Virus record (IMG/VR): IMGVR_UViG_3300025288_000038
Span: 1 to 43,265 of that record
Length of the DNA stretch: 43,265 bases
Source of the DNA: a virus
Lineage: Duplodnaviria; Caudoviricetes
Reading direction: 5' to 3' (one strand)
The notes under the pieces are model-generated. The model was given only the letters and a program-made list of their open reading frames with translations. It made no database searches and was not told the origin of the DNA. Position 1 is the stretch's first letter. Every line of letters starts with the position of its first letter. The position numbers were made by a program, and so were the translations under genes. Of this stretch, positions 13,129 to 41,530 are shown in pieces.

Positions 13129-14441
13129 AGCCCGGGCTCCTGGGGCGGCCCAAACCGAATAAGGGTAGCTGTGGTGGTGTATTTTCCATTAGTAATTTCA
13201 TGCTCCACCTCGGTGCAGTAGTATAGCCCACTAGTGAAGTGGCGCTTACCGGCGGTGTTGGGGTATCGTAGCGAGTGCGGATAGAAGTACACCACCTCTA
13301 TCTGCGTGTTGGGTACTAGGTACGGGTCTCCAAGTACGGTAAGTGTAGCCGTGTTGCCCCACAAGGCCTGGGCTAGGTGGTTTGATAGAGTGCGGGTAAA
13401 CCCGACTATTGGGTCGAACGAGGGTCCGCGCCTGACCCGCAACCCACGTGACGTAACCGACTCCTCCATGTTCTCCGAGCAGTAGTATTTGAGCTGTTGT
13501 GGCTTCTGGATAGGAGGGTACGGGTGGAGGTTAGTGTTTACCGGGGCCGGACCCAGTTCGGAGCCATACGGCTTTGTGTTGCGGAAGTCCAAGCAAAACT
13601 TCTGGTCCTCCCCGGTACGTGGGTTGTATCCGTTTACCATAACTTGGCTAGCGCCCAAGGCTGACACACCGGTAAACGATATGTTGGGGTTCCAGGACAC
13701 CACCACGGAGTCTTTGTCCTGCACTACATACCGACGCGTCTTGGGCGCGTTCTCTGGCAGGGTCAGCTTCATCTTGTCTATCCCGCCCTCGGTTACGAAG
13801 CTTAGGGTGTACCCTACCTTACCGTCGGGGGACACTGCGTAGTTGACTAACCTCTGTACGAAAGACAGGTCGGTCTCCTCGTTGGTCTTCGAGAAGGTGG
13901 CCGTGCGATACTCCGATGTGCGGCCGGTGGGGTCCATTACCTTGAGCTTCGAAAGGTCGATGTTGGGCGTTACTTCGAGCGTGTAGTTGTGAATCTTGGC
14001 TACTGCCTCAAGGCACTCCTGTAGGGTACCGTTGTACTGGTTACTAGCGATGAGAGTGGTGGCACTAGTAAGGTACCCGTTTGCAGTAAGTGTAAAGTAG
14101 TTATGTCCAATAGCAGTGTTGTACCCCTGCAGCATGAAGGAACGCCACTCGGATAGGTCGCTCCCGTTTTGCGCAGTGTACCCCCACCGGCACCGACCCA
14201 TTGGGGCGTTACCCTTGCTCTCGTCCCGGGCTAGCCAGAAGTGCGGCTCTACGTCGAACCCGGTGTCGTCGAACAGTACAGCAGTGAAGGTACCCACCCC
14301 CATGGCCGACGTCTCCTTTAGGTTGAACGACATGGGTACGGTAGCCTCCCCGGGCCCGTACTCGTAGATACGGCTAAGCCCGCCGATCTCAATCTCAAAT
14401 ATAGCGTTAGTTGGGGCCTTCTTCTGGGCCAAGTATGTCAC
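13125..14441 (-). CDS. Baseplate hub protein, gp27/gpD-like
   Basis: ETDLSFVQRL and TVLGDP.L.P...SGLYYCTEVEH.I..G.YTT...L.R motifs; GTG start overlapping the tape-measure TGA. Confidence 0.8.
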   Translation of the reverse strand: MTYLAQKKAPTNAIFEIEIGGLSRIYEYGPGEATVPMSFNLKETSAMGVGTFTAVLFDDTGFDVEPHFWLARDESKGNAPMGRCRWGYTAQNGSDLSEWRSFMLQGYNTAIGHNYFTLTANGYLTSATTLIASNQYNGTLQECLEAVAKIHNYTLEVTPNIDLSKLKVMDPTGRTSEYRTATFSKTNEETDLSFVQRLVNYAVSPDGKVGYTLSFVTEGGIDKMKLTLPENAPKTRRYVVQDKDSVVVSWNPNISFTGVSALGASQVMVNGYNPRTGEDQKFCLDFRNTKPYGSELGPAPVNTNLHPYPPIQKPQQLKYYCSENMEESVTSRGLRVRRGPSFDPIVGFTRTLSNHLAQALWGNTATLTVLGDPYLVPNTQIEVVYFYPHSLRYPNTAGKRHFTSGLYYCTEVEHEITNGKYTTTATLIRFGPPQEPGL

Positions 14442-17400
14442 TGACCACCCTCCCCAACGGCGTCGAATACGCCGTAGTCCCGCATGTTGTTCCTGGCAGT
14501 CTGCGCACGCATCCACTCGTCGTGCTTGGCTTTGTGCACGTTAGCCTCCTTCGCGCTTTGGGCCAGCTCAATAATAGCCTGCTGCGCCTCCGGGTTGAGC
14601 TGGGCAGTAGTAGGGCCGGCCGGCACGACCATCGATCGGCGCTGCTCGGCAGCCAGACGAGCCAGGGCGTCGGTCTTCTCCTCTGTAAACCTGGACTGGA
14701 CGTTCGCACGTACCTCTGGGGTAGCCCGGCTGAAGTAGCGCCCGGACCGGTCGTAAATGGCTCCGATGAGTTCCTCCTCAGAGTACTTTGACAAGTCCCC
14801 GAGGTCCCCCAAGAGGCTGTTAAAGTGGTCGCCTAATTGCACGGAGCGAGACCAGAATACATCCTGCATGGTCTTGGACATCTTTGTGGTATCCAGCCCC
14901 AGCTTTTGCGCCCCCTCGACGGCTGGGTTGAAGTGAGTTCCCTTGATGAAGTCGTGCTCCAAATTTTTTAGGAGTCCGGCCTCAGCCATCTCGACCCACT
15001 TCTTAGCAAACTTACCCTTCTTGTCGTACGAATCCATCTTCAGTGGGGACAGCTGATCGTACAACTGTTTGTCCTTCTTACGCATGAATGCCATAAACTG
15101 GTCTAGGGTACCGGTCTGCTGGGAAATCTGGTACGTGCCGTAGGAGGTACCACCACGGCTATCATAGCCGATGGCAGCGGACCCACGCGGCCCGGACTCG
15201 TATTTGGCGGATAGCGACCCGAGCTTAGACGACGAGGAGGAAGCCGCGTCCCGTATGGCCTTCTGATTACGCGCTATGGCGTCGTCTGACAGGCCCATTA
15301 AGCCTTTCGTCCACCTGGTTATCTTACTGTCCGCGCCGAACACCTTCTCGGCCCCCTGGATGGTGATCTGCTGTACAACCTTCTTGGTGGCTTCGATCTT
15401 ACCGTTACGGACCGACTCGCCCTTCCACCACTTGAACACGGCGTCGATCTTGTCAATCCACCCCTTTAGCGCCTTGATAGGGGCCATGACCCGGCTGACG
15501 ATGGCCTCTCCTACTGCTGTGAAGGCTTGCCAGATGGACTGTATAGCGGACCGTACCGCCTCTAGCGGCTTCAGTATGGCTTTTACCACCGGGTTGCCGG
15601 ATATGGACTCCCAGGCACGGGATAGCAGCCCGATTACCTCGCCTGTGACGGCCTTCCAGAAGCGGACCGGGATTAGTATGAAGTCCACAATAGTCGTACC
15701 AACCTTGCCGGCAATCTCTTTGATCTTGTCCCAGTGCTCGTACAAAAGGGCGAACGCTGCTACGACCAGCATAACTACCCGGACGATCGGGTTCATGCCG
15801 ATGATGAAGTTTATCGCAGCTAGCCCAGTCTTGAATAGGGTGGTGGCGGTGACTACTCCGCCAATGGCTACGGCGATGTAACCTATACCCTTGGCTATCA
15901 ACCCTATGGGCCCCGACATGAACTCAAGCGTACCGGCAGCCAGCTTGAGGCCCCAGGCAATGGCAGCTATTGCAGGTTCGAGTGCCCGCATCAGCGGCAT
16001 GCCCACCACCACTAGCAGACTGTGTCCGATGGAGCGGATGTGTCCTAAGATGGTGGTCCACATTTTGTTGACGTCGTCGAGGGACTTGTTGGAGTCGGCC
16101 TCCTTGCGATTGCGCTTCTGTATGTCCTGTAGGTACTGCTGCTGAAGCATAACCATGGCTCTCTGCTTGTCCACGCCTTGTGCCAGTAGTTGTGGCAACT
16201 TCTCCGCGGCGTACTTCTGCATGCCGGTGAACAACTTGTCGGCCTCCTCGTCAGTCATGAGAAGGTTATCCTTCATCTGCTTCTTTATCGTCTGCACAAA
16301 CCGCTCGGTGTAATCGTCCCAGGTAGCTTGGTTTCCGAACAGGACGTCGGCGGACAAACCCTGGCTGGCAGCCGTGTCGGCCATGTACTTCAGGCCCGCG
16401 TTGGCGCGCTCGATCATGAACGCGCCGAAGTCGTTCTTGCGTAACTTATTCAGTTCGTTTATGGTATTACCGGTCTGCATAGACATGAAGGCTAACGCCC
16501 GTATAGACTCGGGGTTAGTTAAGTCCCCCATCTTCTTGGCCACTTGGTCGACCACGCTACCGGAGATGCCTAGCTCCTTGTACAGGCCGCGGGCGCGAAG
16601 GAGACCAGACACTACAGTTTGGGTAGCCTCTACCCCCGCCATACCCCATTGGGTCATGACCTCGGAAGCTCCCAACGTGGACTCGCGAATTTCCTGCAGT
16701 GACAGGTTATAAGACTTACCTATCTCGAACGCGCCGTTGACGATCTTGTTGGAGTCTTCCAGTTCCACGCCAAGCTCGTGAAGGCCGTATACCAACCGCC
16801 CGGTCTCGTCAGCGGAGTAGCCGTATACCTTCATCCAGTTGGCAGCAGATACTAGGTAGTTGTCCATGCTCTCGCCCAAGTTCCGAGTAAGCAGGCCAGC
16901 GTCACTTAGGGCGTTAGCCAGTTCGACAACACGGTCTTGAGCTATCCCGGTGGCCGCTGAGGCATTGTCGATCGAGGAGTATATGGATTCGTATGCCTTG
17001 GTGAATTTGCCAGTATCCTGCACGATAATCTTCTTAAGGTCCCCTTGCAGGTCCACGGCGGCGGCTAGCGGTATCGACAACAGGGCGGCAAACGGGGTTA
17101 TCCGGCCCACGAGAGACCCTACGGACAAGAAGGCCGCTCCGAGGCTGCCAGCTACGGCCCCGCCAAGGGAGGTAAACTTCCTCTCCAGCCCGCTCAGGAA
17201 GTGCATCGTAGCCCTGGCTCCTGGATTTTTGGTCACATCCGGTGGTAGGCGCTCGAACAAAGTCTCGATGACGGTGGCGTGCTTCTTAGCGGCCTGGGAC
17301 AATCGGGACATACCGGAAATGGCCTGGTCCGTGCGCAGCTGGACGGAAACTGGGGCCATCTTAAAGGGCTTAACCTTGGTGCTATTCTGGGTGGAAGACA

Positions 17401-17605
17401 CCGCGGAGTTGATGGCTGACACCAGAGACTCGGTCAAGGCTCCGGTGGACTTCTTGTTAGACAGCTGCTTAACCAAGCCTTGCACCAAGGAGTCGGCCAC
17501 GGCACCGTACTTCTTCTGGAGAGACCCGGCCCCCTTTTGGAAGGCATTCACGAGGCCCTCCATGAGTCCTTGGGCGAGCATCTCGTGTAAGACATCCGCG
17601 GCCAT
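14438..17605 (-). CDS. Tape measure protein with C-terminal peptidoglycan-hydrolase-like domain
   Basis: 1055 aa, helical and Ala/Gly-rich, central hydrophobic segments, W/F-spaced repeats; C-terminal LSAKYESG...GGTSYGTYQ motif; AAGGAG RBS. Confidence 0.88.
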   Translation of the reverse strand: MAADVLHEMLAQGLMEGLVNAFQKGAGSLQKKYGAVADSLVQGLVKQLSNKKSTGALTESLVSAINSAVSSTQNSTKVKPFKMAPVSVQLRTDQAISGMSRLSQAAKKHATVIETLFERLPPDVTKNPGARATMHFLSGLERKFTSLGGAVAGSLGAAFLSVGSLVGRITPFAALLSIPLAAAVDLQGDLKKIIVQDTGKFTKAYESIYSSIDNASAATGIAQDRVVELANALSDAGLLTRNLGESMDNYLVSAANWMKVYGYSADETGRLVYGLHELGVELEDSNKIVNGAFEIGKSYNLSLQEIRESTLGASEVMTQWGMAGVEATQTVVSGLLRARGLYKELGISGSVVDQVAKKMGDLTNPESIRALAFMSMQTGNTINELNKLRKNDFGAFMIERANAGLKYMADTAASQGLSADVLFGNQATWDDYTERFVQTIKKQMKDNLLMTDEEADKLFTGMQKYAAEKLPQLLAQGVDKQRAMVMLQQQYLQDIQKRNRKEADSNKSLDDVNKMWTTILGHIRSIGHSLLVVVGMPLMRALEPAIAAIAWGLKLAAGTLEFMSGPIGLIAKGIGYIAVAIGGVVTATTLFKTGLAAINFIIGMNPIVRVVMLVVAAFALLYEHWDKIKEIAGKVGTTIVDFILIPVRFWKAVTGEVIGLLSRAWESISGNPVVKAILKPLEAVRSAIQSIWQAFTAVGEAIVSRVMAPIKALKGWIDKIDAVFKWWKGESVRNGKIEATKKVVQQITIQGAEKVFGADSKITRWTKGLMGLSDDAIARNQKAIRDAASSSSSKLGSLSAKYESGPRGSAAIGYDSRGGTSYGTYQISQQTGTLDQFMAFMRKKDKQLYDQLSPLKMDSYDKKGKFAKKWVEMAEAGLLKNLEHDFIKGTHFNPAVEGAQKLGLDTTKMSKTMQDVFWSRSVQLGDHFNSLLGDLGDLSKYSEEELIGAIYDRSGRYFSRATPEVRANVQSRFTEEKTDALARLAAEQRRSMVVPAGPTTAQLNPEAQQAIIELAQSAKEANVHKAKHDEWMRAQTARNNMRDYGVFDAVGEGGQ

Positions 17606-24774: not shown

Positions 24775-24874
24775 GGTATCTCCTAATGTATTAACTGTAA
24801 ACAAGGAAAAGAGTCTTATAGGTTAGTAAACGAAAAGTTGGATACTCCGGGACACCCGCATCCAGCACTCCCGC

Positions 24875-24925: not shown

Positions 24926-25711
24926 ATGATAACAATCGCCAAGATACTAGACAAGATACGTAAGCTAATCGCCATCCGGGATAACGCGGCAAGTTCCCCG
25001 GGCGAGATCGCTAATGCCGCATCTATGATCGTGAAGATGATGGCGAAGTACAACCTAGACAACCGCGACCTTATCTTCGAGGACTTGAAGAAGGACGATA
25101 ACCTAACGGGGGCCGATATTGCGGGACCGCAGTACGACAAGAATATTCCGCTGTGGTATAATGTATTGGCTACCGCTATTGGAGACATATTCGAGTGCGA
25201 GTCCACCATCGTCCGGGTCACAGTGGACGGCAAACGTAAGCTCACGTTCAGGATTTACGGCTACACCCCCGACGTGGAAGTGTCCCAATGGATGTTCTCT
25301 TACCTCGCCGAACAGATAAATAAACTGGCCGACTCGGCGTGGAAGGATGAGTCTGCACTCATCCAGTCGTGGAAGGACAGGAAGCCGTGGGCGTCCGAGC
25401 TAACCCGGTTCAAGTCCAAGTATCGCTATGGAGTCGTACAAGGGATCCTCCCGCGTCTTCGAACTGCGTATGAGGAACAAACTAAACAGGAACCGATGCC
25501 CGCGGGCACGGGGACCAGATTAGTTGTGTATAAACTACAACGCATCCACGAGGTATTCAACCTCAAGCACGACCGGGTGGAGATGAAGCGGCCTAGGGGC
25601 GACACCAACGCCATAATGCGCGGGTTAATCGACAGTAAGAAGGTAGCCATCCGCAAAGTGGTGGCCGGCGGCAATACTCGCCAACAGCTGGAATACAACC
25701 ATGAGTGCTAA
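24926..25711 (+). CDS. DUF2786-like protein
   Basis: ILDKIRKLIA....SSPGEIANA....KMMAKYNL N-terminus and FRIYG...DVE...WMF.YL core. Confidence 0.8.
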   Translation: MITIAKILDKIRKLIAIRDNAASSPGEIANAASMIVKMMAKYNLDNRDLIFEDLKKDDNLTGADIAGPQYDKNIPLWYNVLATAIGDIFECESTIVRVTVDGKRKLTFRIYGYTPDVEVSQWMFSYLAEQINKLADSAWKDESALIQSWKDRKPWASELTRFKSKYRYGVVQGILPRLRTAYEEQTKQEPMPAGTGTRLVVYKLQRIHEVFNLKHDRVEMKRPRGDTNAIMRGLIDSKKVAIRKVVAGGNTRQQLEYNHEC

Positions 25712-26009
25712 TAAATACTCAGTCCAGCCCGCTTGGATCCGTACCACCGTGCGCTGGAACAGCCAAAAATACGTCGACAAGCGGGAAGTGGACTATAGAA
25801 GCTTGCGGCGGATAGCCGCCTTATTCTCGGAGCCAAGGATGCTGCACTTCTTCTCATACCGAGATACCCTGGCCGGCGAGCTCTACAAGTTCGAAACCGA
25901 GTTGCCAAAGGTTACTGCCGCCTTTGGTACCCGGGACGCTTGCACGTTGCGCTGCGACAAGACCTACCCGACGGTAATCTCTAGTTTATTTTACGTACGA
26001 GGAAGCTAA
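25701..26009 (+). CDS. Hypothetical protein
   Basis: 102-aa ORF tightly packed with its neighbours. Confidence 0.65.
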   Translation: MSANKYSVQPAWIRTTVRWNSQKYVDKREVDYRSLRRIAALFSEPRMLHFFSYRDTLAGELYKFETELPKVTAAFGTRDACTLRCDKTYPTVISSLFYVRGS

Positions 26010-26011
26010 CC

Positions 26012-26452
26012 ATGCTAACACCCCTAACCAAAGACATGGTTGTGGCCGGGAACGCTATTTTCACCATTCACAACGGGGGCGGGAAGCACTTCACGTTCCG
26101 AGTAGTGAAGCCGAAGCAGGACCATCAGCCTGGCGGTGACGCCTACTTTGCCCAGCTACTGACCGGGCCGGACAACACCAGCGACTATACGTACGTAGGG
26201 TTGGTAAACCCGGTTGACCTCCAGGTACGCCTGACCCGGGCGAGTAAGCTGGTGGATAGTTCCGTTCCGGTCCGGGTACTGCGCTGGGCGCTAGCCCACG
26301 TACAGCACCACAAGGAATTCCCGTCCGGTTATTTCGCTACCCACGCCGGGCGCTGCTGCCGGTGTGGACGCCTGCTAACCGACCCGGTTAGTGTACAGAC
26401 CGGGTTCGGCCCGGAGTGTCGCCATATCCTTGGGAAAGGAGATACCAAGTGA
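26012..26452 (+). CDS. DUF6011-like zinc-binding protein
   Basis: LTGPDNTSDY.YVG and C-terminal CCRCGR.LTDP.S...GFGPEC motifs. Confidence 0.8.
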   Translation: MLTPLTKDMVVAGNAIFTIHNGGGKHFTFRVVKPKQDHQPGGDAYFAQLLTGPDNTSDYTYVGLVNPVDLQVRLTRASKLVDSSVPVRVLRWALAHVQHHKEFPSGYFATHAGRCCRCGRLLTDPVSVQTGFGPECRHILGKGDTK

Positions 26453-26649
26453 TCCGCATTACTAACACAGTACCGTCCCACAGCAAGTTCAAAAGCCTCG
26501 CCGACCAAGAATGTAATAACCTTACCAAGGACGTGAACAGGTTGTGGCCTAACGGGTGCATCGACACCCGCCCTGTGGTGAACTACGTGCGAAACCATAC
26601 CGACGCATTCTCGTATTGCGTGTTCGGATACCGAGTACAGCAGGGATGA
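26449..26649 (+). CDS. Small hypothetical protein
   Basis: GTG start overlapping the upstream TGA, with AAGGAG RBS; 66 aa. Confidence 0.6.
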   Translation: MIRITNTVPSHSKFKSLADQECNNLTKDVNRLWPNGCIDTRPVVNYVRNHTDAFSYCVFGYRVQQG

Positions 26650-26896
26650 GTGTCGCCAACCACCCACACTACGCTGTGTATCAGTTCCGGTACAGGGTAT
26701 TCCTGCCAGGATTCCGCGTATGCCCCACTAACGGTCATTGGTGCGGGGGTACGAGACCGGGCTGATTGCACTGGTTGCTACCAAAATAGCCGCTAACCCT
26801 AAGCGCGAGAATTACGGGCACCAAGTACGCTTCGTGGTTAATGTCTCGGAAACCGGCAAGTTGTCACACCATATTTTACCCTACACAAAGGAGTAG
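26646..26896 (+). pseudogene. Possibly frameshifted small gene
   Basis: ATGA-coupled start (MSVANHPHY...) stops at 26765, but a second frame from about 26732 (RSLVRGYETG...PYTKE*) runs to 2 nt before the next ATG. Confidence 0.35.
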
Positions 26897-26898
26897 CT

Positions 26899-27600
26899 AT
26901 GAGTAACGAATTACATATTAACATACTAGACGCGGTGAAGCTAACCCCGGTCCGCGCCGACGTCATAGCGGCGCTGAATGAAGTCGCCAGCAAATACGGC
27001 CTAAAAATGAGCGTGGGCCGGATCGACTATAGTGACACCACCTTCTCGTTCAAGGTAAGTGGGGTGATGCTAGGGGCTGACAGCCACGAAGCTGTGCGGT
27101 ATAAGAGGAACGCTGGCTGCTACAACGTCGACCCGGAGTCCCTTGGGAAGCCCATCGCCGCCCAAGGGCGCACTGTGTACATCGCGGGGATGGAAATCGG
27201 CGGGATTATTGTGGCGGAGGATAGTTCCGGTAACAGGTACAGGATAAAGGCCAGCACGGTAGCTACCCACTACCCGGCAGGGTGCTTCGAAGCGCGGGCA
27301 GTCCAGCCCCGGGAGGGTAGCCAAAAGGCAACGAAGCCCGCTGCTAACCCCATCTCCACGCCGACGCAGCCGAGCAATCAACTCAAGCCGGACTGCAAAG
27401 TGGCTGGCGGTGGTGGAGCACAGCTACACACTTTGGCGGAGCTCAAGAAGTGCACCACGTTCTCTACCGTAATCGCGTACCTACAAGAACACGACATGAT
27501 GCGTAGACTCCCTGATGGCTGGATCGATGGGTATCAGGACAGGAATGTCGGTCTACTCAAGGGAATTCTGGTCGCCAAAATCAGGTCCTGGAAGCTCTAA
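26899..27600 (+). CDS. Hypothetical two-domain protein
   Basis: 233 aa, AAGGAG RBS, Pro/Thr-rich linker between two globular-looking segments. Confidence 0.75.
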   Translation: MSNELHINILDAVKLTPVRADVIAALNEVASKYGLKMSVGRIDYSDTTFSFKVSGVMLGADSHEAVRYKRNAGCYNVDPESLGKPIAAQGRTVYIAGMEIGGIIVAEDSSGNRYRIKASTVATHYPAGCFEARAVQPREGSQKATKPAANPISTPTQPSNQLKPDCKVAGGGGAQLHTLAELKKCTTFSTVIAYLQEHDMMRRLPDGWIDGYQDRNVGLLKGILVAKIRSWKL

Positions 27601-27673
27601 CGGCGGCAAGAGTGTCGCATAATTGTTAGCAAGAGAATGGGCATTAGTAGTGCCGGACAAGTGGGCCGCACCT

Positions 27674-27704
27674 AAAAACAAGAGCGTGGTACAATATGTT
27701 TAGT
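27674..27704 (+). promoter_or_regulatory. Island promoter, copy 2
   Basis: Extended -10 TGGTACAAT inside the shared 31-nt motif, about 30 nt before the ATG at 27736. Confidence 0.7.
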
Positions 27705-27735
27705 ACCACTCAATAATCGTTCAAAGAGATATACC

Positions 27736-28773
27736 ATGACAATCCAAGCACTCATCACTTCCCCTACCAGTAACGTCCCGTCTGCCTTCGCATTCGCCGG
27801 TAACGCCCCTTGGCACGGGCTCGGTCGCAACCTGCAAGACGGCGCGACTCTCGACCAGTGGACCAATGAGGCTGGCTTCAGTTGGGAAGCCAAGGTCGGC
27901 CCGGTGGCCTACTACCCCAATGCGCACATTGCGGAGAGCGGTACTCCCGTCGTAGGCCATCCGGTAACTCTAAAAAACCAAGTCTGCATCTACCGGTCCG
28001 ATACGCAGGCACCGCTGTCCATCATGTCGGGCGGCTATAAGTTGGTCCAGCCTAAACAGGTTATGGAGTTCTTCCGAGACGTCGCAGAGGCTGGCAAGCT
28101 AAAGATGGAGACCGCGGGGATGCTAAAAGGAGGTGCGGTGTACTGGGCCCTGGCCCGCATCAACGACCAATTTAGCGTGACGAAGGACGACCCCATCCTC
28201 CCATACGTGCTCATGGCCACGTCCCTAGATGGTAGTCTATCTACCACCGTGGGGTTTAGCAGCGTCCGGGTTGTCTGCTACAACACGCTGCAGATGGCCG
28301 TTGGTCGCGGTAACAATAACACCACCATCAAGGTGCCGCACAATTCCCTATTCGACGAAAGTCGGGTGAAGGCCGAGCTCGGCCTCGTGGAAGGGCAGTG
28401 GGACAATTTCAAGCGAGTCTCTGCCCAGCTGGCTAGCCGGGAGGTGAACCGGGCGGAGTTAATCCAGTTCATGGTGGACGTGTTCACCCCGGAGTCCAAG
28501 AGGGATAAGATTAACCTGTTGGAAGCCGACAACATCGTAGCGCGCGCCCCTAACATCCGCAAGTGCCTGGACCTGTACGAATCCGGGGTTGGCCAGTCTA
28601 CCAAGTCGGCGAAGGGCACCGCTTGGGGGGCACTGAACGTCATCACCCGCTACCAAGACCATGAGGTCAAAGCCATCAGCAACGAGTCGAAGCTACGGTC
28701 CGCGTGGTTCGGAGAGGGCAAGCGCCGTAAGGAACGCGCACTACAACTCGCCTTGAAACTCACCACCAAGTAA
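27736..28773 (+). CDS. DUF932-family phage/plasmid protein
   Basis: PWHGLG, YRSDT..PL, Y..VQ, ETAG.L.GG, S.DGS, RVVC.NTL, TAWGA.N and WFG.G...K motifs. Confidence 0.9.
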   Translation: MTIQALITSPTSNVPSAFAFAGNAPWHGLGRNLQDGATLDQWTNEAGFSWEAKVGPVAYYPNAHIAESGTPVVGHPVTLKNQVCIYRSDTQAPLSIMSGGYKLVQPKQVMEFFRDVAEAGKLKMETAGMLKGGAVYWALARINDQFSVTKDDPILPYVLMATSLDGSLSTTVGFSSVRVVCYNTLQMAVGRGNNNTTIKVPHNSLFDESRVKAELGLVEGQWDNFKRVSAQLASREVNRAELIQFMVDVFTPESKRDKINLLEADNIVARAPNIRKCLDLYESGVGQSTKSAKGTAWGALNVITRYQDHEVKAISNESKLRSAWFGEGKRRKERALQLALKLTTK

Positions 28774-28892
28774 GGAGCTAACATACACATCATAACCACC
28801 CCGGAGCAACCGTTTGCGGGACCGAAGCGGAGTGCATCGCGTACGAAACTAGTAAGCCTACCATGTTCTACGTTACTACCTAGGAGACGCTC

Positions 28893-29183
28893 GTGAAAGC
28901 TATTACTACAATTATGCTGGAAGTCAATAATAACCCCGACCCCGCCGAGGGGGCAATTCGTGCCCTCTTGCGCCTTTACAGCCGGAAATACGTGCTACAA
29001 GCGCTCTCGAAGAGCTTGACATCGGACTACCGGGATGTCGCGGCTGTCCTGTTCTCGCTATCTTACCGCGCCGACGTGATCGAGCTGGACACCAAGGATG
29101 CACACCCGCACTTGGAAAAGAACGCGTTACCAAGGGTTACCCGTAGCAAATCATTTTACGCGGATGACGATATTCCGTTCTAA
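28893..29183 (+). CDS. Small protein ending in an SSB-type DDDIPF tail
   Basis: AGGAG RBS plus GTG; C-terminus SFYADDDIPF. Confidence 0.7.
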   Translation: MKAITTIMLEVNNNPDPAEGAIRALLRLYSRKYVLQALSKSLTSDYRDVAAVLFSLSYRADVIELDTKDAHPHLEKNALPRVTRSKSFYADDDIPF

Positions 29184-29345
29184 TTTCTACCATGCGCTAA
29201 AATCGGCGCATTCAAAGGACGAAATTATGAGCATATCAGTCGACATGCTTGGGCACTACTGAGCTGGCATGGCCATATATTTTGTATTATGATTGTTATA
29301 CCCGCGCACTAAGTGGGATAACAATGAATTTTGGAACGGGGCGAA

Positions 29346-29519
29346 ATGAGCGAAACATGTAAATGGACTTATGACGAAAATGGCGCATGGGATACCGAAT
29401 GCGGCAACCGCTTTGAGATAACAGAGGGTACGCCGCACGAAAACAACATGCACTTTTGCGCGTTTTGTGGGAAGAGGCTGGAAGAGATATTAGCTGACGA
29501 CGATAACCCGGTTTGTTGA
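29346..29519 (+). CDS. Small zinc-ribbon protein
   Basis: C.W...WDTECG...FCAFCGK motif; ATG at 29346. Confidence 0.7.
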   Translation: MSETCKWTYDENGAWDTECGNRFEITEGTPHENNMHFCAFCGKRLEEILADDDNPVC

Positions 29520-29578: not shown

Positions 29579-29605
29579 AAAAAAAGAGGACCCCTGGGGG
29601 TCCTC
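29579..29605 (-). terminator. Intrinsic terminator
   Basis: Minus strand GAGGACCC-CCAG-GGGTCCTC followed by 7 T. Confidence 0.9.
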
Positions 29606-29637
29606 AACGTACAACTAAGGAGACTACCCCCAAAGAG

Positions 29638-30148
29638 TACGGGCAACTAATACTAGGTTACAAAATAGCTGCCAATTGCGCGAATAACGACAAGAATTTT
29701 GGAATAGATTATCTTTTCTCAAGTTCAGATCTGGCATTACCACCCCAAACGCCAACGCGAGCCCAGGCACAGTACAATTAAACCCCTACGTCTTTCAGGA
29801 GCCCGCTATGTGCCTTTCTTCTCCCGTTTCTATTTGCGTTTCGTTTTGTTATCCTCCGAATTCACGAGAGCAAGTATTTGACATGACTACTTGTCTACTT
29901 TCCCACTTCAGGTGTTCCAACAGCCCGATTTTGCCTATTTCGTTACAACGAAAGATTAGGATAATTGTGTGGCTCGGGGTAAAAAAGCAAATGCAGTGTT
30001 ATTTAGTACGATAAAAACGGCTGGAGGTAAGCCGATTCTCGAGAGTGGGTAGGTGGATTTCGTACCCACTTAGCGGTAAACCGGTACCGTTTGACAGTAA
30101 TGTCTACACCTCTCGCCGCCACGCGGCAGGCCACTTAGTTGCCCCGTA
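29638..30148 (-). ncRNA. Candidate large structured ncRNA, family unassigned
   Basis: No credible ORF; ends are complementary (30135-30148 with 29638-29650); about ten internal helices, several needing G-U pairs available only on the minus strand; terminator just downstream. Confidence 0.65.
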
Positions 30149-30158
30149 TATATATATT

Positions 30159-30220
30159 TGGGCCGCCTACTTGGCGGCCCAGTGAGGCTCCAAACCCCCA
30201 AGCTAAGCTTGGGGATTCGG
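30159..30220 (-). other. Two strong hairpins directly after the capsid stop codon
   Basis: 14-bp stem with 2 G-U pairs (30190-30220) and a perfect 9-bp stem (30159-30181); no U tract follows the second. Confidence 0.75.
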
Positions 30221-31624
30221 TTAGGCAGTGAAGTTACTGACCGTGCCCTTCCGGAAGTACTTGGCTTGGTTCACGACACTGGCGTAGAGTGAGACCATAC
30301 CAGCGGCGTTGTACAAGTCCGGGGATTGGAACACCGGAGTAGCATACAGAGGGATGTAGTCGCCCAGGACGATGGAGCTGTCCCCGATGACATAGCCCTT
30401 GAAGCCAACGATGTAGGTGTTCGCGTCCATGGTCGGGACTTTAATGACGGACACGGTACCGTCGCGCAGGGTACCGATCTCGTACGGTCCGATGGGAGCC
30501 ACAACACCGGATTCCTTGAAGCCCTTGACCTGACTCCAAATATTGGCAGCGTTGTAGCCACACAGTACCCAGCTCACACCACCGCGGCCCAGTTCGGACT
30601 GGATCAGGCTCTCAGCGTAGTCTAGCTTAACACCCATTTCAGCGTAGCGGGCCAGCTTCGAGTAGTTGGTGGGCGGGGTGGCGTCGAAGTTCAGGGAGAC
30701 GTCGGCTTGGGCATGCAGGATGATCTGGTTGATCAACTGCATGTCGCGCTCCTGCTTGATGAAGGAGCCAACCAACTGAGTCAGCATATCACCCAGGTCC
30801 AGGTTGTAGTGACCCTCGGCCGCGAACTGGGACATCTGGCTCCACACCACCTTGAGCGGATGCGGCTCGGCAGTGATCGGGAGATTGGTGATCTGGATAT
30901 CCAGCGAACGAGTATGGGCGGAGTTCTGCTCAGAATCGTACCGGTACTGGGCAACGGCGTTAGTACCATTGGCGGGGGCAGTGGTGTAGGTAAGGGAGAT
31001 CGCACCACTGGTGTAGTCGATAGTACCGGTGACACCGGTGCCAGTCAGGGTACCGGAGCCGTTGTCAGTACAGGTAACCGAACCACAGGTGATGGTGACG
31101 GTACCGGAACGGACGGGAACAACGTCCAGGGTGCCAGTCAGGGTGGTGGCAGTACCGTTGCCCGTGCTGACTACGGCGGTGATGTTCTCGGACGCGTAGG
31201 TACCGTCGGTGATGTTCTGGAACACTTGCTGACCGGCAGTCACGCCGCCAGCCGAGTTCGAGTACACCGGGCGGACCAGCACGATCTGGCCGTTCTGGCG
31301 GTCCATGGGCTGGATGTCAACCAGCTTATGGCTGATCAGGTTCGGGTAGAAGACGCGAACGATGTCGATGATCTTCGGGACCAGGGTACCCAGGGCGTTA
31401 GTGAACACGGCTTCCATCCGCTTGTCGCGAGAAACGGACTCCATGAACCGGGCTTGGTTCTCCATAACGAGTAGGGAGTTGGCGGCGACAGCCGAGCGGG
31501 CCGAATCAGCGCCTTCCAGGGCTTCCAGTAGGGACTTGTACTTCTTCCAAGAGCGGTTCTCGTCCAAGACACGCTGGACAGCCTTGCTGCGGTCTTCTTG
31601 GATTTTGCGTTCGAATAGTTGCAT
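30221..31624 (-). CDS. Major capsid protein, T4 gp23-like
   Basis: VMENQ, LVDIQPM....GQI, TAEPH.LK..WS and IGTL motifs; follows the protease gene; AAGGA RBS. Confidence 0.93.
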   Translation of the reverse strand: MQLFERKIQEDRSKAVQRVLDENRSWKKYKSLLEALEGADSARSAVAANSLLVMENQARFMESVSRDKRMEAVFTNALGTLVPKIIDIVRVFYPNLISHKLVDIQPMDRQNGQIVLVRPVYSNSAGGVTAGQQVFQNITDGTYASENITAVVSTGNGTATTLTGTLDVVPVRSGTVTITCGSVTCTDNGSGTLTGTGVTGTIDYTSGAISLTYTTAPANGTNAVAQYRYDSEQNSAHTRSLDIQITNLPITAEPHPLKVVWSQMSQFAAEGHYNLDLGDMLTQLVGSFIKQERDMQLINQIILHAQADVSLNFDATPPTNYSKLARYAEMGVKLDYAESLIQSELGRGGVSWVLCGYNAANIWSQVKGFKESGVVAPIGPYEIGTLRDGTVSVIKVPTMDANTYIVGFKGYVIGDSSIVLGDYIPLYATPVFQSPDLYNAAGMVSLYASVVNQAKYFRKGTVSNFTA

Positions 31625-39418: not shown

Positions 39419-39709
39419 TTATGTCGTCATCTTGTCCGTCAGCCGCTGGCCCCGGGCACGACGCTCGGCATGCGCGGCCGCCCACGCTTCTTCGCTCAAA
39501 ACACACCAAAGGTCGCGAGCAACCCTAACGTGTTTGGTAATGTCGTGAAACGCTATACGCCCAAACTGTACAAACCCAGTTTCATTCCAGTGCTTCGCTA
39601 TAGCAAAGTCGCCAGAGTTCATTCGAACCCCCTCTAGTTTTCCGCCGTAATCTACGGCCTGCGTTTCCATGTAGAGCAACAGGCTTTTTTCTTCTTTAGT
39701 CAATTCCAT
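39419..39709 (-). CDS. Hypothetical protein
   Basis: GAGG RBS plus ATG 39709 (MELTKEEKSLLLY...). Confidence 0.75.
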   Translation of the reverse strand: MELTKEEKSLLLYMETQAVDYGGKLEGVRMNSGDFAIAKHWNETGFVQFGRIAFHDITKHVRVARDLWCVLSEEAWAAAHAERRARGQRLTDKMTT

Positions 39710-39723
39710 TTTGTTTTCCTCTG

Positions 39724-39945
39724 TTAGTATTCGTCGCTGCCAGATAACGTACTCTCGAACGCCATGAGCATCGCCCGTACGCACTCGCTGTGGATTTCGG
39801 CCCACTGTCTATACGCCGCCTCGCGCTCCTCGTAGCTTACGGGTTGGCTAAGTATAGAGGGGTCCTTACCTGGGGCCATGTACCCGCTCATGATGCGGAA
39901 AGCTTCCGCCTGTATATCGAACTTGGTGATTTCGCTTAGTTTCAT
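39724..39945 (-). CDS. Hypothetical protein
   Basis: 73 aa, AGGA RBS. Confidence 0.7.
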   Translation of the reverse strand: MKLSEITKFDIQAEAFRIMSGYMAPGKDPSILSQPVSYEEREAAYRQWAEIHSECVRAMLMAFESTLSGSDEY

Positions 39946-39975
39946 ATTGTTCCTAGGGCCAGCGATAGTTATCAG

Positions 39976-40128
39976 CTAGCTGTACTGTTGACTTAAGTAC
40001 TGGACGCGCGTCTCAGTCTCCCGGTGAAATTTCAACTTGTACTGCACCCTAACCCTCGAGGATTGAACCCAACAAGCAAGGTACAGTTTGTTGTAGTGCC
40101 GGTTTTCTTCCCACCACCGGGTGCCCAT
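39976..40128 (-). CDS. Possible small protein (50 aa)
   Basis: MGTRWWEENRHYNKLYLACW... fills the gap after the ligase; weak RBS. Confidence 0.3.
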   Translation of the reverse strand: MGTRWWEENRHYNKLYLACWVQSSRVRVQYKLKFHRETETRVQYLSQQYS

Positions 40129-40153
40129 TTGTAGAACCCCAGTGTGAGGATGC

Positions 40154-41530
40154 TCATTCTGGCATCCTCACGGCATCGGCGAATTGTCTCAAGACGGACT
40201 CAAGGGAGTCGGCCTCCGACTTATCGGTCCGAAACTCCACAAATCGGGGCAAATAGAGGGAATGGGTATTGCTCTTACCAGACGGCTCGGTAACCGAGTT
40301 GGCCTTCACCGTCATCACCGTCCCCGACTGGACCATACCCTCCAGCTGGGTGAACACCAGCGGTACCTCTTCCTGCTTAAACCCGGACACGGGGATGTTG
40401 ACCTCCAGTAGGTCGTCAGAGGTACGGGCCACGATCGACCCAAAGTAGTTCTTGTTCTTGCCGGTGCCGGGGTTCCATCCCGCTACCTTCAAGTCGACGT
40501 CAACCTCCAGCTTGAACTTCACTTGGAACGGATTGTCACCATCCCGGTAGACCGCCTCGGGATGTTTTAGGATAGTACCCTCCAGTCCCTGGGCCAGCAC
40601 AGTCCTCAAATGGACCTGGGCCTCGGTGCGGGAATAGACCAACTTGGTCTCCACCACAGATATGGCATTAGAGCCCCCGGCTCCCAGGAACGACTTTATG
40701 TAACCGAAGCGAACTCGGTAGGGAGAGTCACATGACCCGCCTGGGTTAGCGCACGTTAGGGGGATGGCGTCCCAAACGTGGAACACTATCTTATGGCCCT
40801 CAGGTAGCGCCCCACCATGCTGCAGCTTCCTGAGGATACCATTACCGTCCTTGCGGGATAGGATAACGCCGTTCTTACTGATGAGTGCCTCCCCGTGCAT
40901 TCGGTAACCCCCTAACAAACGGGCCTCGTTCAGTATTTCCTCGAACGGGGCTATCGGGAACAGCTGCCCCTTTCGGGAGGTCACTTGACATCGGTCCATT
41001 GAGGGGTGAACATCCACATTTAGGAACTGTCCGTCGGCCTTCAGCTGGGAATACACCCCCTGCGACCACGGGAACGTGCCGAGGTCAGCCTGGGATTCGG
41101 TTACGCACCGCATATAAGGGAACTCCGGAATCAGGTTTGGGATCGCCTTGTTGATGATGGAGTCGCCTATTCCGGCGCGGAGGTCCTTCTTGAGGATGCG
41201 GGCGAGGAGGTATCGAGAGGATTCGGTCAGGGAACCGAGAGCGATGGCGATCTGGCGCTGAGCCTCATTACCGACGAGCGTCCGGGCTATCAGGGCATCC
41301 AGCGTTGCCCAGTGGTACCACTGAATCTCGAGATTGTTGAAGATTTGGGGTTCGGGCTCGGGAATGACTTCGACACCAAACCGAAGAAACGGGTCATAGG
41401 CGTAGCGGAGTACCCGGGCGAACTCGTCCCCGTGCTGGGAGTAACCAAACCGGATGAGGTCCTCCTTATCGATGCGAGACGGGTTGGCGGCGATCTGGTC
41501 GATCAAGGCGAAAATACTGTCGGAACTCAT
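40154..41530 (-). CDS. ATP-dependent DNA ligase, T4 gp30-like
   Basis: KDLRAG, motif I KADG, HGE, WD, EGTILK, KFK and LPRF...RTDK motifs. Confidence 0.96.
   Translation of the reverse strand: MSSDSIFALIDQIAANPSRIDKEDLIRFGYSQHGDEFARVLRYAYDPFLRFGVEVIPEPEPQIFNNLEIQWYHWATLDALIARTLVGNEAQRQIAIALGSLTESSRYLLARILKKDLRAGIGDSIINKAIPNLIPEFPYMRCVTESQADLGTFPWSQGVYSQLKADGQFLNVDVHPSMDRCQVTSRKGQLFPIAPFEEILNEARLLGGYRMHGEALISKNGVILSRKDGNGILRKLQHGGALPEGHKIVFHVWDAIPLTCANPGGSCDSPYRVRFGYIKSFLGAGGSNAISVVETKLVYSRTEAQVHLRTVLAQGLEGTILKHPEAVYRDGDNPFQVKFKLEVDVDLKVAGWNPGTGKNKNYFGSIVARTSDDLLEVNIPVSGFKQEEVPLVFTQLEGMVQSGTVMTVKANSVTEPSGKSNTHSLYLPRFVEFRTDKSEADSLESVLRQFADAVRMPE

What the first reader, a model, noticed from the sequence alone, without database searches (positions are those of the whole stretch)
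29638..30148. Candidate ~510-nt ornate ncRNA directly downstream of the major capsid gene
Seen: a long non-coding gap in an otherwise tightly packed region. A closing helix joins 30135-30148 with 29638-29650 (13 bp, one bulge). Inner helices: 30115-19/30123-27, 30106-11/29910-15 (long range), 30093-96/30101-04, 30074-78/30085-89, 30044-51/30063-70 (8 bp), 30018-22/30030-34, nested 29924-28/29974-78 + 29934-44/29947-60, 29871-76/29888-93, 29821-27/29864-70, 29765-71/29809-15 and 29698-707/29740-49. The 29821/29864 and 29698/29740 helices need G-U pairs that exist only on the minus strand, and a minus-strand terminator follows 33 nt later. Known: phages encode large structured RNAs such as ROOL, GOLLD and phi29 pRNA. 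Inference: an abundant late RNA co-transcribed with the capsid gene, possibly an unclassified class with a structural, packaging or decoy role. Helices were found by eye only.
Basis: partly seen in the sequence, partly recalled or inferred. Interest (0 to 1): 0.9.

Follow-up and report, generated by a model that had tools for sequence, protein, structure and literature searches.

The report
Orphan end-clamped RNA after phage capsid
Behind this uncultured phage's capsid gene lies a 510-base stretch with no credible protein gene, whose two ends are predicted to pair into a 37-pair stem just before a stop-signal hairpin; it likely makes a stable RNA of no catalogued family, but we found no relative of it and no transcript data.

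Summary
Partly confirmed. The 701-nt gap behind the T4-type capsid gene has no credible protein gene.

The non-chance feature is larger than reported: a predicted 37-pair end-to-end stem (30110-30148 with 29638-29696, 7 G-U, minus strand). None of 400 selection-aware shuffles and 5 of 834 genome windows reach its energy. A U7 terminator-like hairpin follows.

The 'ornate' interior is not supported. Its z is -1.0 to -1.4, its hairpin count is at chance, and 8 of the 13 helices have pairing probability of 0.11 or less.

There is no Rfam match, no homologue in any search, no covariation test and no RNA run. None of 31 capsid-relative loci carries it. After a terminator hairpin they usually have a protein gene, often endonuclease-like.

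Best reading (0.5): a stable late RNA cut from capsid read-through. No sense gene follows for 4.8 kb, so it likely acts in trans rather than as an attenuator. Rivals are a long 3' UTR or insulator, and a MITE-like insertion. The scan's earlier AI notes report similar-sized RNAs behind capsid genes on other DNA; none was sequence-similar.

The parts
30221..31624 (-). Major capsid protein gene (T4 gp23 type), likely source of read-through transcription
   Evidence: Pfam Gp23 E 6e-25, PHROG 138; closest cultured relatives are Pseudomonas phage QdP_Psa3 (56%) and Xanthomonas phage phiXF1 (54%)
30190..30220 (-). Hairpin A, 14 predicted pairs (perfect only on the minus strand, with G-U), 1 T in the next 8 nt
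30159..30181 (-). Hairpin B, 9 pairs; sits where relatives have their capsid terminator hairpin, but is followed by an A/T alternation rather than a U tract (3 T in 8 nt)
   Evidence: the stem resembles the L007/L055 hairpin (by eye)
30149..30158 (-). A/T-only linker, (TA)n run; inferred processing site, or a TA target if the element is a MITE
   Evidence: sequence; predicted unpaired; the longest TA run in the window
30110..30148 (-). 5' arm of the predicted 37-pair closing stem
   Evidence: segment probabilities 0.75-0.96
29696..30110 (-). 415-nt interior. Better-supported predicted helices: 30070-63/30051-44, 29960-57/29937-34 with 29953-48/29943-38, 29928-24/29912-08, and a long arm 29828-29796/29788-29754 that includes 29815-09/29771-65. 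The rest is ambiguous.
   Evidence: z -1.36, not above shuffles
29638..29696 (-). 3' arm of the closing stem, with bulges of 4, 4 and 14 nt
29609..29640 (-). Small hairpin C; holds a 10-of-12 direct repeat of the stem's 3' end (29607-18 against 29639-50)
   Evidence: (D7, I3)
29579..29605 (-). Intrinsic-terminator-like hairpin, 8 pairs followed by 7 T
   Evidence: (p 1.00)
24926..29519 (+). Convergent block of plus-strand genes (DUF7168, DUF6011, DUF932, phrog_10312 and others); the next minus-strand gene I accepted starts at 24804
29808..30014 (+). 68-codon ORF inside the element, rejected as a gene
   Evidence: only a self match among 5.8 billion proteins; no Pfam or PHROG hit; codon score -0.36, below all 19 held-out genes; Atlas pLDDT 0.47

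Best explanation
The stretch is non-coding DNA behind the capsid gene that likely yields a stable late RNA of about 510-570 nt, clamped by a predicted 37-pair end-to-end stem and likely acting in trans as an RNA scaffold or decoy rather than as a switch for downstream genes. SHOWN by sequence and calls: no credible protein gene; a non-chance end-to-end complementarity that is stronger on the minus strand; a strong terminator-like site 33 nt behind it; weak U tracts after the two hairpins that follow the capsid stop; convergent genes beyond. INFERRED: (1) late transcription reads through hairpins A and B; (2) a single-strand endonuclease of the RNase E type cuts in the A/U linker 30149-30158, or hairpin B gives partial termination; (3) transcription ends at 29579-29586; (4) the closing stem shields both ends, so the RNA accumulates with the capsid message; (5) the RNA works as a scaffold, oligomer or protein decoy in the way proposed for ROOL and GOLLD. 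Step 5 rests on analogy only (about 0.25 taken alone). The element is a lineage-specific acquisition in a slot that related phages often fill with accessory or endonuclease-like genes.
For: Closing stem: -45.1 kcal/mol, 0 of 1000 shuffles, 0 of 400 with window selection allowed for, 5 of 834 real windows. It has 7 G-U pairs, and the plus strand gives only -33.8, which points to RNA of the capsid strand. The stem spans almost the whole space between hairpin B and hairpin C plus terminator. Terminator: (z -3.33). Read-through: 1 and 3 T in the 8 nt after hairpins A and B, against 4 or more in 21 of the 26 relatives with a detected hairpin, out of 29 examined. Non-coding: best blastx E 2.6 against 1854 frames of 69 loci; 0 of 8 gap frames hit Pfam. 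No sense-strand gene follows for 4.8 kb. Precedent for large phage RNAs of unknown function forming RNA-only complexes: PMC12286853 and PMC5737381 (passages read).
Against: Interior folding is not above shuffles, and global z is the same on both strands. No homologue turned up in: 50,697 phage records; 72,556 plasmids; 20,395 E. coli records; 15 records of capsid relatives by BLAST; 23 such records by a 5'-half covariance model (no positive control); 31 capsid loci by nhmmer; five IMG/VR pattern scans; one exact 30-mer scan of GTDB. So there is no covariation and no conservation. 5 of 26 relatives also have 3 T or fewer after their hairpin, so the read-through argument is soft. The window sizes of the stem test were chosen after the helix was seen; one search corrects only partly, and an earlier 60/60 test with other limits gave 15 of 2000. 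ROOL and GOLLD usually lie near tRNAs, and there is none in the window.
Confidence: 0.5

Rival explanations
1. A long structured 3' untranslated tail of the capsid mRNA and a buffer between two convergent operons, with no separate RNA product. The stem and terminator would stabilise the capsid message and stop it running antisense into the plus-strand block. The C-rich plus-strand stretch 29700-29940 could give Rho a runway to end the plus-strand transcript.
For: Convergent layout. The scan lists no plus-strand terminator between 29519 and 30220. GC skew is -0.19 to -0.38 over 29700-29939. Interior folding is at chance. GC of 46% matches other gaps, 41-53%.
Against: Relatives do this with one hairpin, including L057 and L056, which also have reverse genes behind the capsid gene. 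A 37-pair stem over 415 nt is not needed for it. The same C-rich skew follows from G-U-rich pairing on the minus strand.
Confidence: 0.22
2. A non-autonomous mobile DNA element (MITE type): 13-14 bp terminal inverted repeats bounded by TA on both sides, inserted in a TA run, as IS630/Tc1-type elements do (recalled).
For: The sequence shows TA at both outer ends and the right end inside a (TA)n run. The slot after the capsid gene holds endonuclease-like genes in relatives: domain hits in 8 of 10 tested, several below the curated cut-off and one very weak. A contig of the same phage from another assembly ends exactly at 30147.
Against: One copy in the window. In the contigs of 8 runs laid at 80% likeness there is no joint skipping the element and no loose end at either boundary, and 2 contigs span it with both flanks (contigs drop rare variants). 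The end-pair pattern scan of IMG/VR gave 16 loci, none similar to the element. The extension of the stem rests on one-strand G-U pairs, which a DNA repeat would not favour. The TA on both sides is simply part of the inverted repeat.
Confidence: 0.12
3. Decayed remains of an accessory or homing-endonuclease gene, or neutral spacer DNA, with a chance end-to-end match.
For: Relatives carry endonuclease-like ORFs in this slot. The interior folds like shuffled sequence. 5 of 834 ordinary windows give an equally strong end duplex.
Against: No residual protein similarity. All 10 gap frames score below zero on the codon model. The stem coincides with the ends of the gap.
Confidence: 0.09
4. A DNA-level element such as a replication origin or a packaging site.
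For: Non-coding, lower GC than the genome (46% against 56%), with one TA run.
Against: No iteron-like repeat family; all 14 direct-repeat families have two copies only. It lies between converging genes. DNA folding z is -2.04 and -1.81, no better than RNA. It is absent at this place in relatives.
Confidence: 0.04
5. A small plus-strand protein gene (29808-30014, 68 aa, with an AGGAG motif upstream) that ends the convergent operon.
For: ATG start with a ribosome-site-like motif; gene callers called it in this same phage.
Against: No homologue; codon score below all 19 held-out genes; poor model; it explains neither stem nor terminator.
Confidence: 0.03

Closest known systems
ROOL RNA (Rfam RF03087; Weinberg 2017, PMC5737381; Kretsch 2025, PMC12286853)
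   Same: Similar size (ROOL averages 581 nt), phage-encoded, function unknown (passages read).
   Different: No match to the model. [quoted passage not shown] Here no such core is shown, there is no tRNA in the window, and the element lies behind the capsid gene.
GOLLD RNA (Rfam RF02032)
   Same: Large phage or prophage RNA; its level rises during lysis (PMC12286853 passage), as inferred here.
   Different: Many members exceed 800 nt and lie near tRNAs; no match to the model.
manA RNA (RF01745; bioRxiv 10.64898/2026.07.01.735769)
   Same: Found in phages; forms RNA-only cages (passages read).
   Different: Under 200 nt, described as lying in 5' untranslated regions; no Rfam match here.
Intrinsic terminators after major capsid genes in this clade
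   Same: Same genomic slot; hairpin B resembles the relatives' hairpin.
   Different: In relatives it is one hairpin of about 20-40 nt followed by a gene. Here two hairpins, about 510 nt with a long closing stem, and then the terminator-like site.
phi29 pRNA (recalled, not read here)
   Different: Much shorter and tied to phi29-type motors (recalled). No Rfam match, and capsid relatives lack the element, so it cannot be a core packaging part of the clade.
IS630/Tc1-type MITEs (recalled)
   Same: Short terminal inverted repeats bounded by TA, non-coding interior.
   Different: Single copy, no empty site seen, no autonomous partner found; extended pairing needs G-U on one strand.

Membership tests
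ROOL (RF03087) | Match to the Rfam covariance model | tested here: not met
   (no hit up to E 10). One search was also empty but had no positive control.
ROOL (RF03087) | [quoted passage not shown] | not testable with these tools
   no homologue found, so no alignment
ROOL / GOLLD | Often near tRNA genes | tested here: not met
   0 tRNA or tmRNA genes in the 43-kb window; the genome is incomplete
ROOL / GOLLD | RNA-only homo-oligomer or cage | not testable with these tools
   needs in vitro transcription and cryo-EM or mass photometry
GOLLD (RF02032) | Match to the conserved 3' domain model | tested here: not met
manA (RF01745) and all other Rfam 15 families, including Mu-gpT-DE, RNase P, tmRNA, group I and II introns | Match at gathering score or any E up to 10 within the element | tested here: not met
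   (0 matches); one search gave 4 weak matches, at the terminator end of the gap or inside the capsid gene; ARAGORN found none. The same tool found a group I intron in L069.
Large structured phage ncRNA (kind, not family) | Non-coding, with defined ends (closing helix, terminator) | tested here: met
Large structured phage ncRNA (kind, not family) | Folding of the interior above chance | tested here: not met
   single-sequence folding scores are weak tests, so this does not exclude structure
Large structured phage ncRNA (kind, not family) | Covariation among homologues | tested here: inconclusive
   no homologue found
Large structured phage ncRNA (kind, not family) | Discrete abundant transcript | not testable with these tools
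   only DNA contigs could be laid
MITE (IS630/Tc1 type) | Terminal inverted repeats bounded by TA | tested here: met
   13 of 14 positions, TA at both outer ends
MITE (IS630/Tc1 type) | Several copies with different flanks, or an empty-site allele | tested here: not met
   contigs can hide rare alleles
T4 late-promoter-driven RNA | TATAAATA-type late promoters used by the clade (consensus recalled) | tested here: not met
   0 TATAAATA in the window; TATAWATA absent from 3 of 5 relative records, once in a fourth, and in the fifth no more often than the reversed control

The most novel reading that the evidence does not exclude
The element is the first member of an uncatalogued class of roughly 500-nt phage RNAs that move between phages into the slot behind the capsid gene, are made at capsid-level abundance and self-assemble or sequester a host factor late in infection. 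Its dead-end position (terminator, then 4.6 kb of opposite-strand genes) would show that capsid-downstream large RNAs act in trans and are not attenuators.
Probability: 0.25. Interest if true: 0.8.

Novelty: new variant of a known kind. Interest (0 to 1): 0.45.

Why it matters
The function of large phage RNAs (ROOL, GOLLD, manA) is open. If this RNA is real, it adds an unrelated sequence class from a T4-type myophage of groundwater. It also gives a clean test case: nothing on its strand follows it, so control of downstream genes cannot be its job, unlike most capsid-downstream candidates. As it stands it is a single sequence with one strong structural signal, so its value depends on finding homologues or a transcript.

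Tried and rejected
Rfam: 0 matches at gathering score over the window, and 0 up to E 10 on 29630-30160.

Homologue hunts that gave nothing:
- BLAST of phages, plasmids and E. coli: only short matches of 19-33 nt.
- IMG/VR patterns: 0 loci; 16 loci, none similar; 10 loci; 39 loci; 120 loci from 49 of 64 parts of the collection, none similar.
- GTDB: exact 30-mer; a capsid search of GTDB found no relative.
- Model R1 was built from the window and its own identical record, with a fragment fold that differs from the full-length fold, so searches are weak tests. No model of the 3' half was made.

Sequencing runs: no RNA holder listed. Small-share runs X21-X24 proved to be short identical fragments, not variants or empty sites. 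One substitution inside the element (30051) appears in one contig at depth 2 and may be an error.

Unresolved lead: in run X1 a different, abundant 11.9-kb contig matches 30074-30098 at 24 of 25 letters, and its next letters agree at 7 of 12 by eye. About one such match per run of that size is expected by chance (rough estimate). Its second piece, in DUF932, is preceded by an in-frame stop by my reading, and a pattern built from the shared letters found nothing. The contig could not be fetched.

Rejected:
- T4-type late promoter in the TA run.
- sigma-70 promoter at the 5' end (none listed).
- Protein gene or gene remnant.
- tmRNA, RNase P and intron identities.
- Palindromic kissing loops and two 5-bp pseudoknots (loop 30029-23 with 29857-53, and loop 30062-52): seen by eye, at a frequency chance would give.

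Literature searches for a described RNA behind a capsid gene gave no paper holding all terms. Searches listed ROOL, GOLLD, OLE, manA and cabRNA work but nothing on this element. Supplements not seen: that of PMC5737381 and three files of PMC10690425, whose phage candidates are 29-151 nt long. A fragment of this element could lie there unseen.

Full report
SETTING. The window is a 43-kb fragment of an uncultured myophage with T4-type head and tail genes. The capsid protein is 56% and 54% identical to those of Pseudomonas phage QdP_Psa3 and Xanthomonas phage phiXF1. The runs holding the stretch are labelled aquifer or groundwater metagenome; all 24 are 2017 DNA contigs and may be one campaign. 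Late genes run on the minus strand. A plus-strand block (24926-29519) interrupts them behind the capsid gene, so the finding sits between converging genes in a 701-nt gap, the largest of 18 gaps over 40 nt.

OBSERVATION. All 13 helices are complementary as stated, and the terminator-like hairpin with 7 T is present. Whether they exceed chance differs by part. The whole 511 nt fold at z -2.27 (minus) and -2.39 (plus). 2 of 29 control windows of the same genome reach -2.27, and one refolds at -3.05. Without the closing helix z is about -1.0, and the interior alone gives -1.36. Local folding with pairs up to 60 nt apart gives -0.7, and the hairpin count is 6 against 4.2 expected. Only one 120-nt window inside the element, 30000-30119, stands out on both strands (z -3.7 and -2.8 on 40 shuffles).

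The signal is the pairing of the two ends. This duplex has -45.1 kcal/mol and 7 G-U pairs. 0 of 1000 shuffles reach it, 0 of 400 when the best of many distant window pairs is taken, and 5 of 834 real windows. The plus strand gives -33.8 (6 of 1000). An earlier test with other limits gave 15 of 2000. Thermodynamic models are unreliable for large RNAs, so the interior fold is open, not disproved.

NOT PROTEIN-CODING. The only ORF of 50 aa or more inside the element (29808-30014, plus strand) has no homologue except itself. Its frame has no tblastn match in 50,697 phage records, and its codon score is below all 19 held-out genes. Eight gap frames have no Pfam hit. blastx against 1854 frames from 69 related loci gives E 2.6 at best.

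RELATIVES. Capsid-based searches gave loci at 33-70% identity. None of 31 loci matches the element by nhmmer at E 5. All 11 loci at 53-70% with at least 500 nt downstream have an ORF of 70 aa or more within about 210 nt of the capsid stop. Several distant AT-rich relatives have long gaps without similarity to ours. Usually one hairpin follows the capsid stop: 21 of 26 detected hairpins have 4 or more T in the next 8 nt, against 1 and 3 for the two hairpins here (29 loci examined, 3 without a hairpin). Of 10 downstream ORFs tested, 8 hit endonuclease-associated domains, several below cut-off. So the slot is variable and the element is a lineage-specific addition. The closest relatives (66-76%) are known only as proteins, and their DNA could not be read; this is the main gap in the evidence.

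HOMOLOGUES OF THE ELEMENT. None was found by BLAST, by a 5'-half covariance model, by five IMG/VR pattern scans (checked in 41, 79, 80, 94) or by one GTDB pattern. Exact patterns miss diverged members, so this shows rarity, not absence. In the contigs of 8 runs the element is invariant apart from one low-depth difference. Two contigs span it with both flanks, and no joint skips it. One 25-nt match in another contig of run X1 stays unresolved. Rfam gives no match, and ARAGORN finds no tRNA or tmRNA.

MECHANISM. Shown: non-coding gap, end-to-end complementarity favouring the capsid strand, a terminator-like site behind it, weak U tracts before it, no sense gene after it. Inferred: late transcription reads through hairpins A and B, a cut in the A/U linker frees a 510-570 nt RNA ending at the terminator, and the stem protects both ends. 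No sigma-70 promoter is listed at the 5' end, and the clade shows no T4-type late promoter, so an own promoter is not supported. Because 4.6 kb of opposite-strand genes follow, attenuation of downstream late genes is not a plausible job. A trans role as scaffold or decoy, by analogy with ROOL and GOLLD, is my best guess but rests on analogy only. Confidence in the stable-RNA reading is 0.5. Rivals: long 3' tail or insulator 0.22, MITE-like insertion 0.12, decayed gene or spacer 0.09, DNA element 0.04, small protein 0.03.

COMPARISON WITH WHAT IS KNOWN. By size and setting it resembles ROOL (581 nt on average, six junctions, three pseudoknots, often near tRNAs; PMC5737381, passages). It also resembles GOLLD and the cage-forming RNAs (PMC12286853, passages; bioRxiv 10.64898/2026.07.01.735769, passages). 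PMC10383478 (passages) describes highly expressed long RNAs near tRNA genes in Herelleviridae. It is a member of none of these families by model match. The phage catalogue of PMC10690425 (passages; six supplementary files searched, three not) holds candidates of 29-151 nt only. Two all-term searches for an RNA downstream of a capsid gene returned no paper; most subscription journals are outside this library. Statements on pRNA, MITEs, RNase E sites and T4 promoters are recalled. The scan's own notes list eight RNAs of 295-561 nt behind capsid genes in other genomes, none similar by sequence look-up. They are unchecked AI notes, two marked as partly fallen, and I count them as context, not support.

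VERDICT. It is uncatalogued but so far a singleton, without covariation or transcript evidence. Interest 0.45. The boldest reading (a mobile, trans-acting class of capsid-linked large RNAs) has probability about 0.25 and would deserve 0.8.

Noticed in passing
L069:3883-4133 (same place as L017 near 5404): A group I intron interrupts the last codons of the major capsid gene of a distant relative (Rfam RF00028, 72.8 bits).
   Followed up: partly
L009:5485-7017, L024:1141-2676, L016:5506-7089, L014:5470-6597, L019:7402-8097, L060:4122-5483, L061:4161-5495, L030:4438-6036: The slot right behind the capsid terminator holds endonuclease-like ORFs (HNH/NUMOD, TnsA-like, MTES_1575; some with weak Mom or GNAT-like hits) in many relatives.
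   Followed up: partly
window 29607-29628: A 10-of-12 direct repeat of the stem's 3' end lies 32 nt further on and offers the 5' arm an alternative partner of about 17 pairs (D7 and I3). It does not touch the terminator; unexplained.
   Followed up: partly
L001:4478 = window 30147: A contig of the same phage from another assembly ends exactly in the TA run at the element's boundary; slippage, a branch or chance.
   Followed up: partly
window 30074-30098, run X1 record 2: Another abundant 11.9-kb contig matches 24 of 25 letters and agrees at 7 of the next 12; possible homologue or chance.
   Followed up: partly
window 39701-40211 (minus): The region of small ORFs behind the DNA ligase gene folds at z -3.05 (0 of 100 shuffles), better than the flagged element; it includes a long hairpin near 40030-40080.
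   Followed up: no
L008, L009, L011, L018, L019 upstream of the capsid start; window 30035-30042 (plus): A shared motif of the ATTCTCG type stands 40-70 nt before the capsid start in five relatives and may be this clade's late promoter. The window has a looser version there and a plus-strand copy inside the element.
   Followed up: no
window 14438-17605 (minus): The tape-measure-like protein ends in a T6SS VgrG3-like C-terminal domain (PF21277, E 2e-30).
   Followed up: no
window 29337-29486 (plus): The small phrog_10312 gene next to the element has close homologues (about 86-89% DNA identity) in other, more abundant contigs of the same runs, with different flanks.
   Followed up: no
L018:7590-8768: In Pseudomonas phage QdP_Psa3 the gene after the capsid encodes an alginate-lyase domain (PF08787, E 2e-38) but is annotated as hypothetical.
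   Followed up: no
L062/L063:3998-5497: About 1.5 kb without a plus-strand ORF of 70 aa behind the capsid gene of AT-rich 230-kb relatives; no Rfam match in L062.
   Followed up: no
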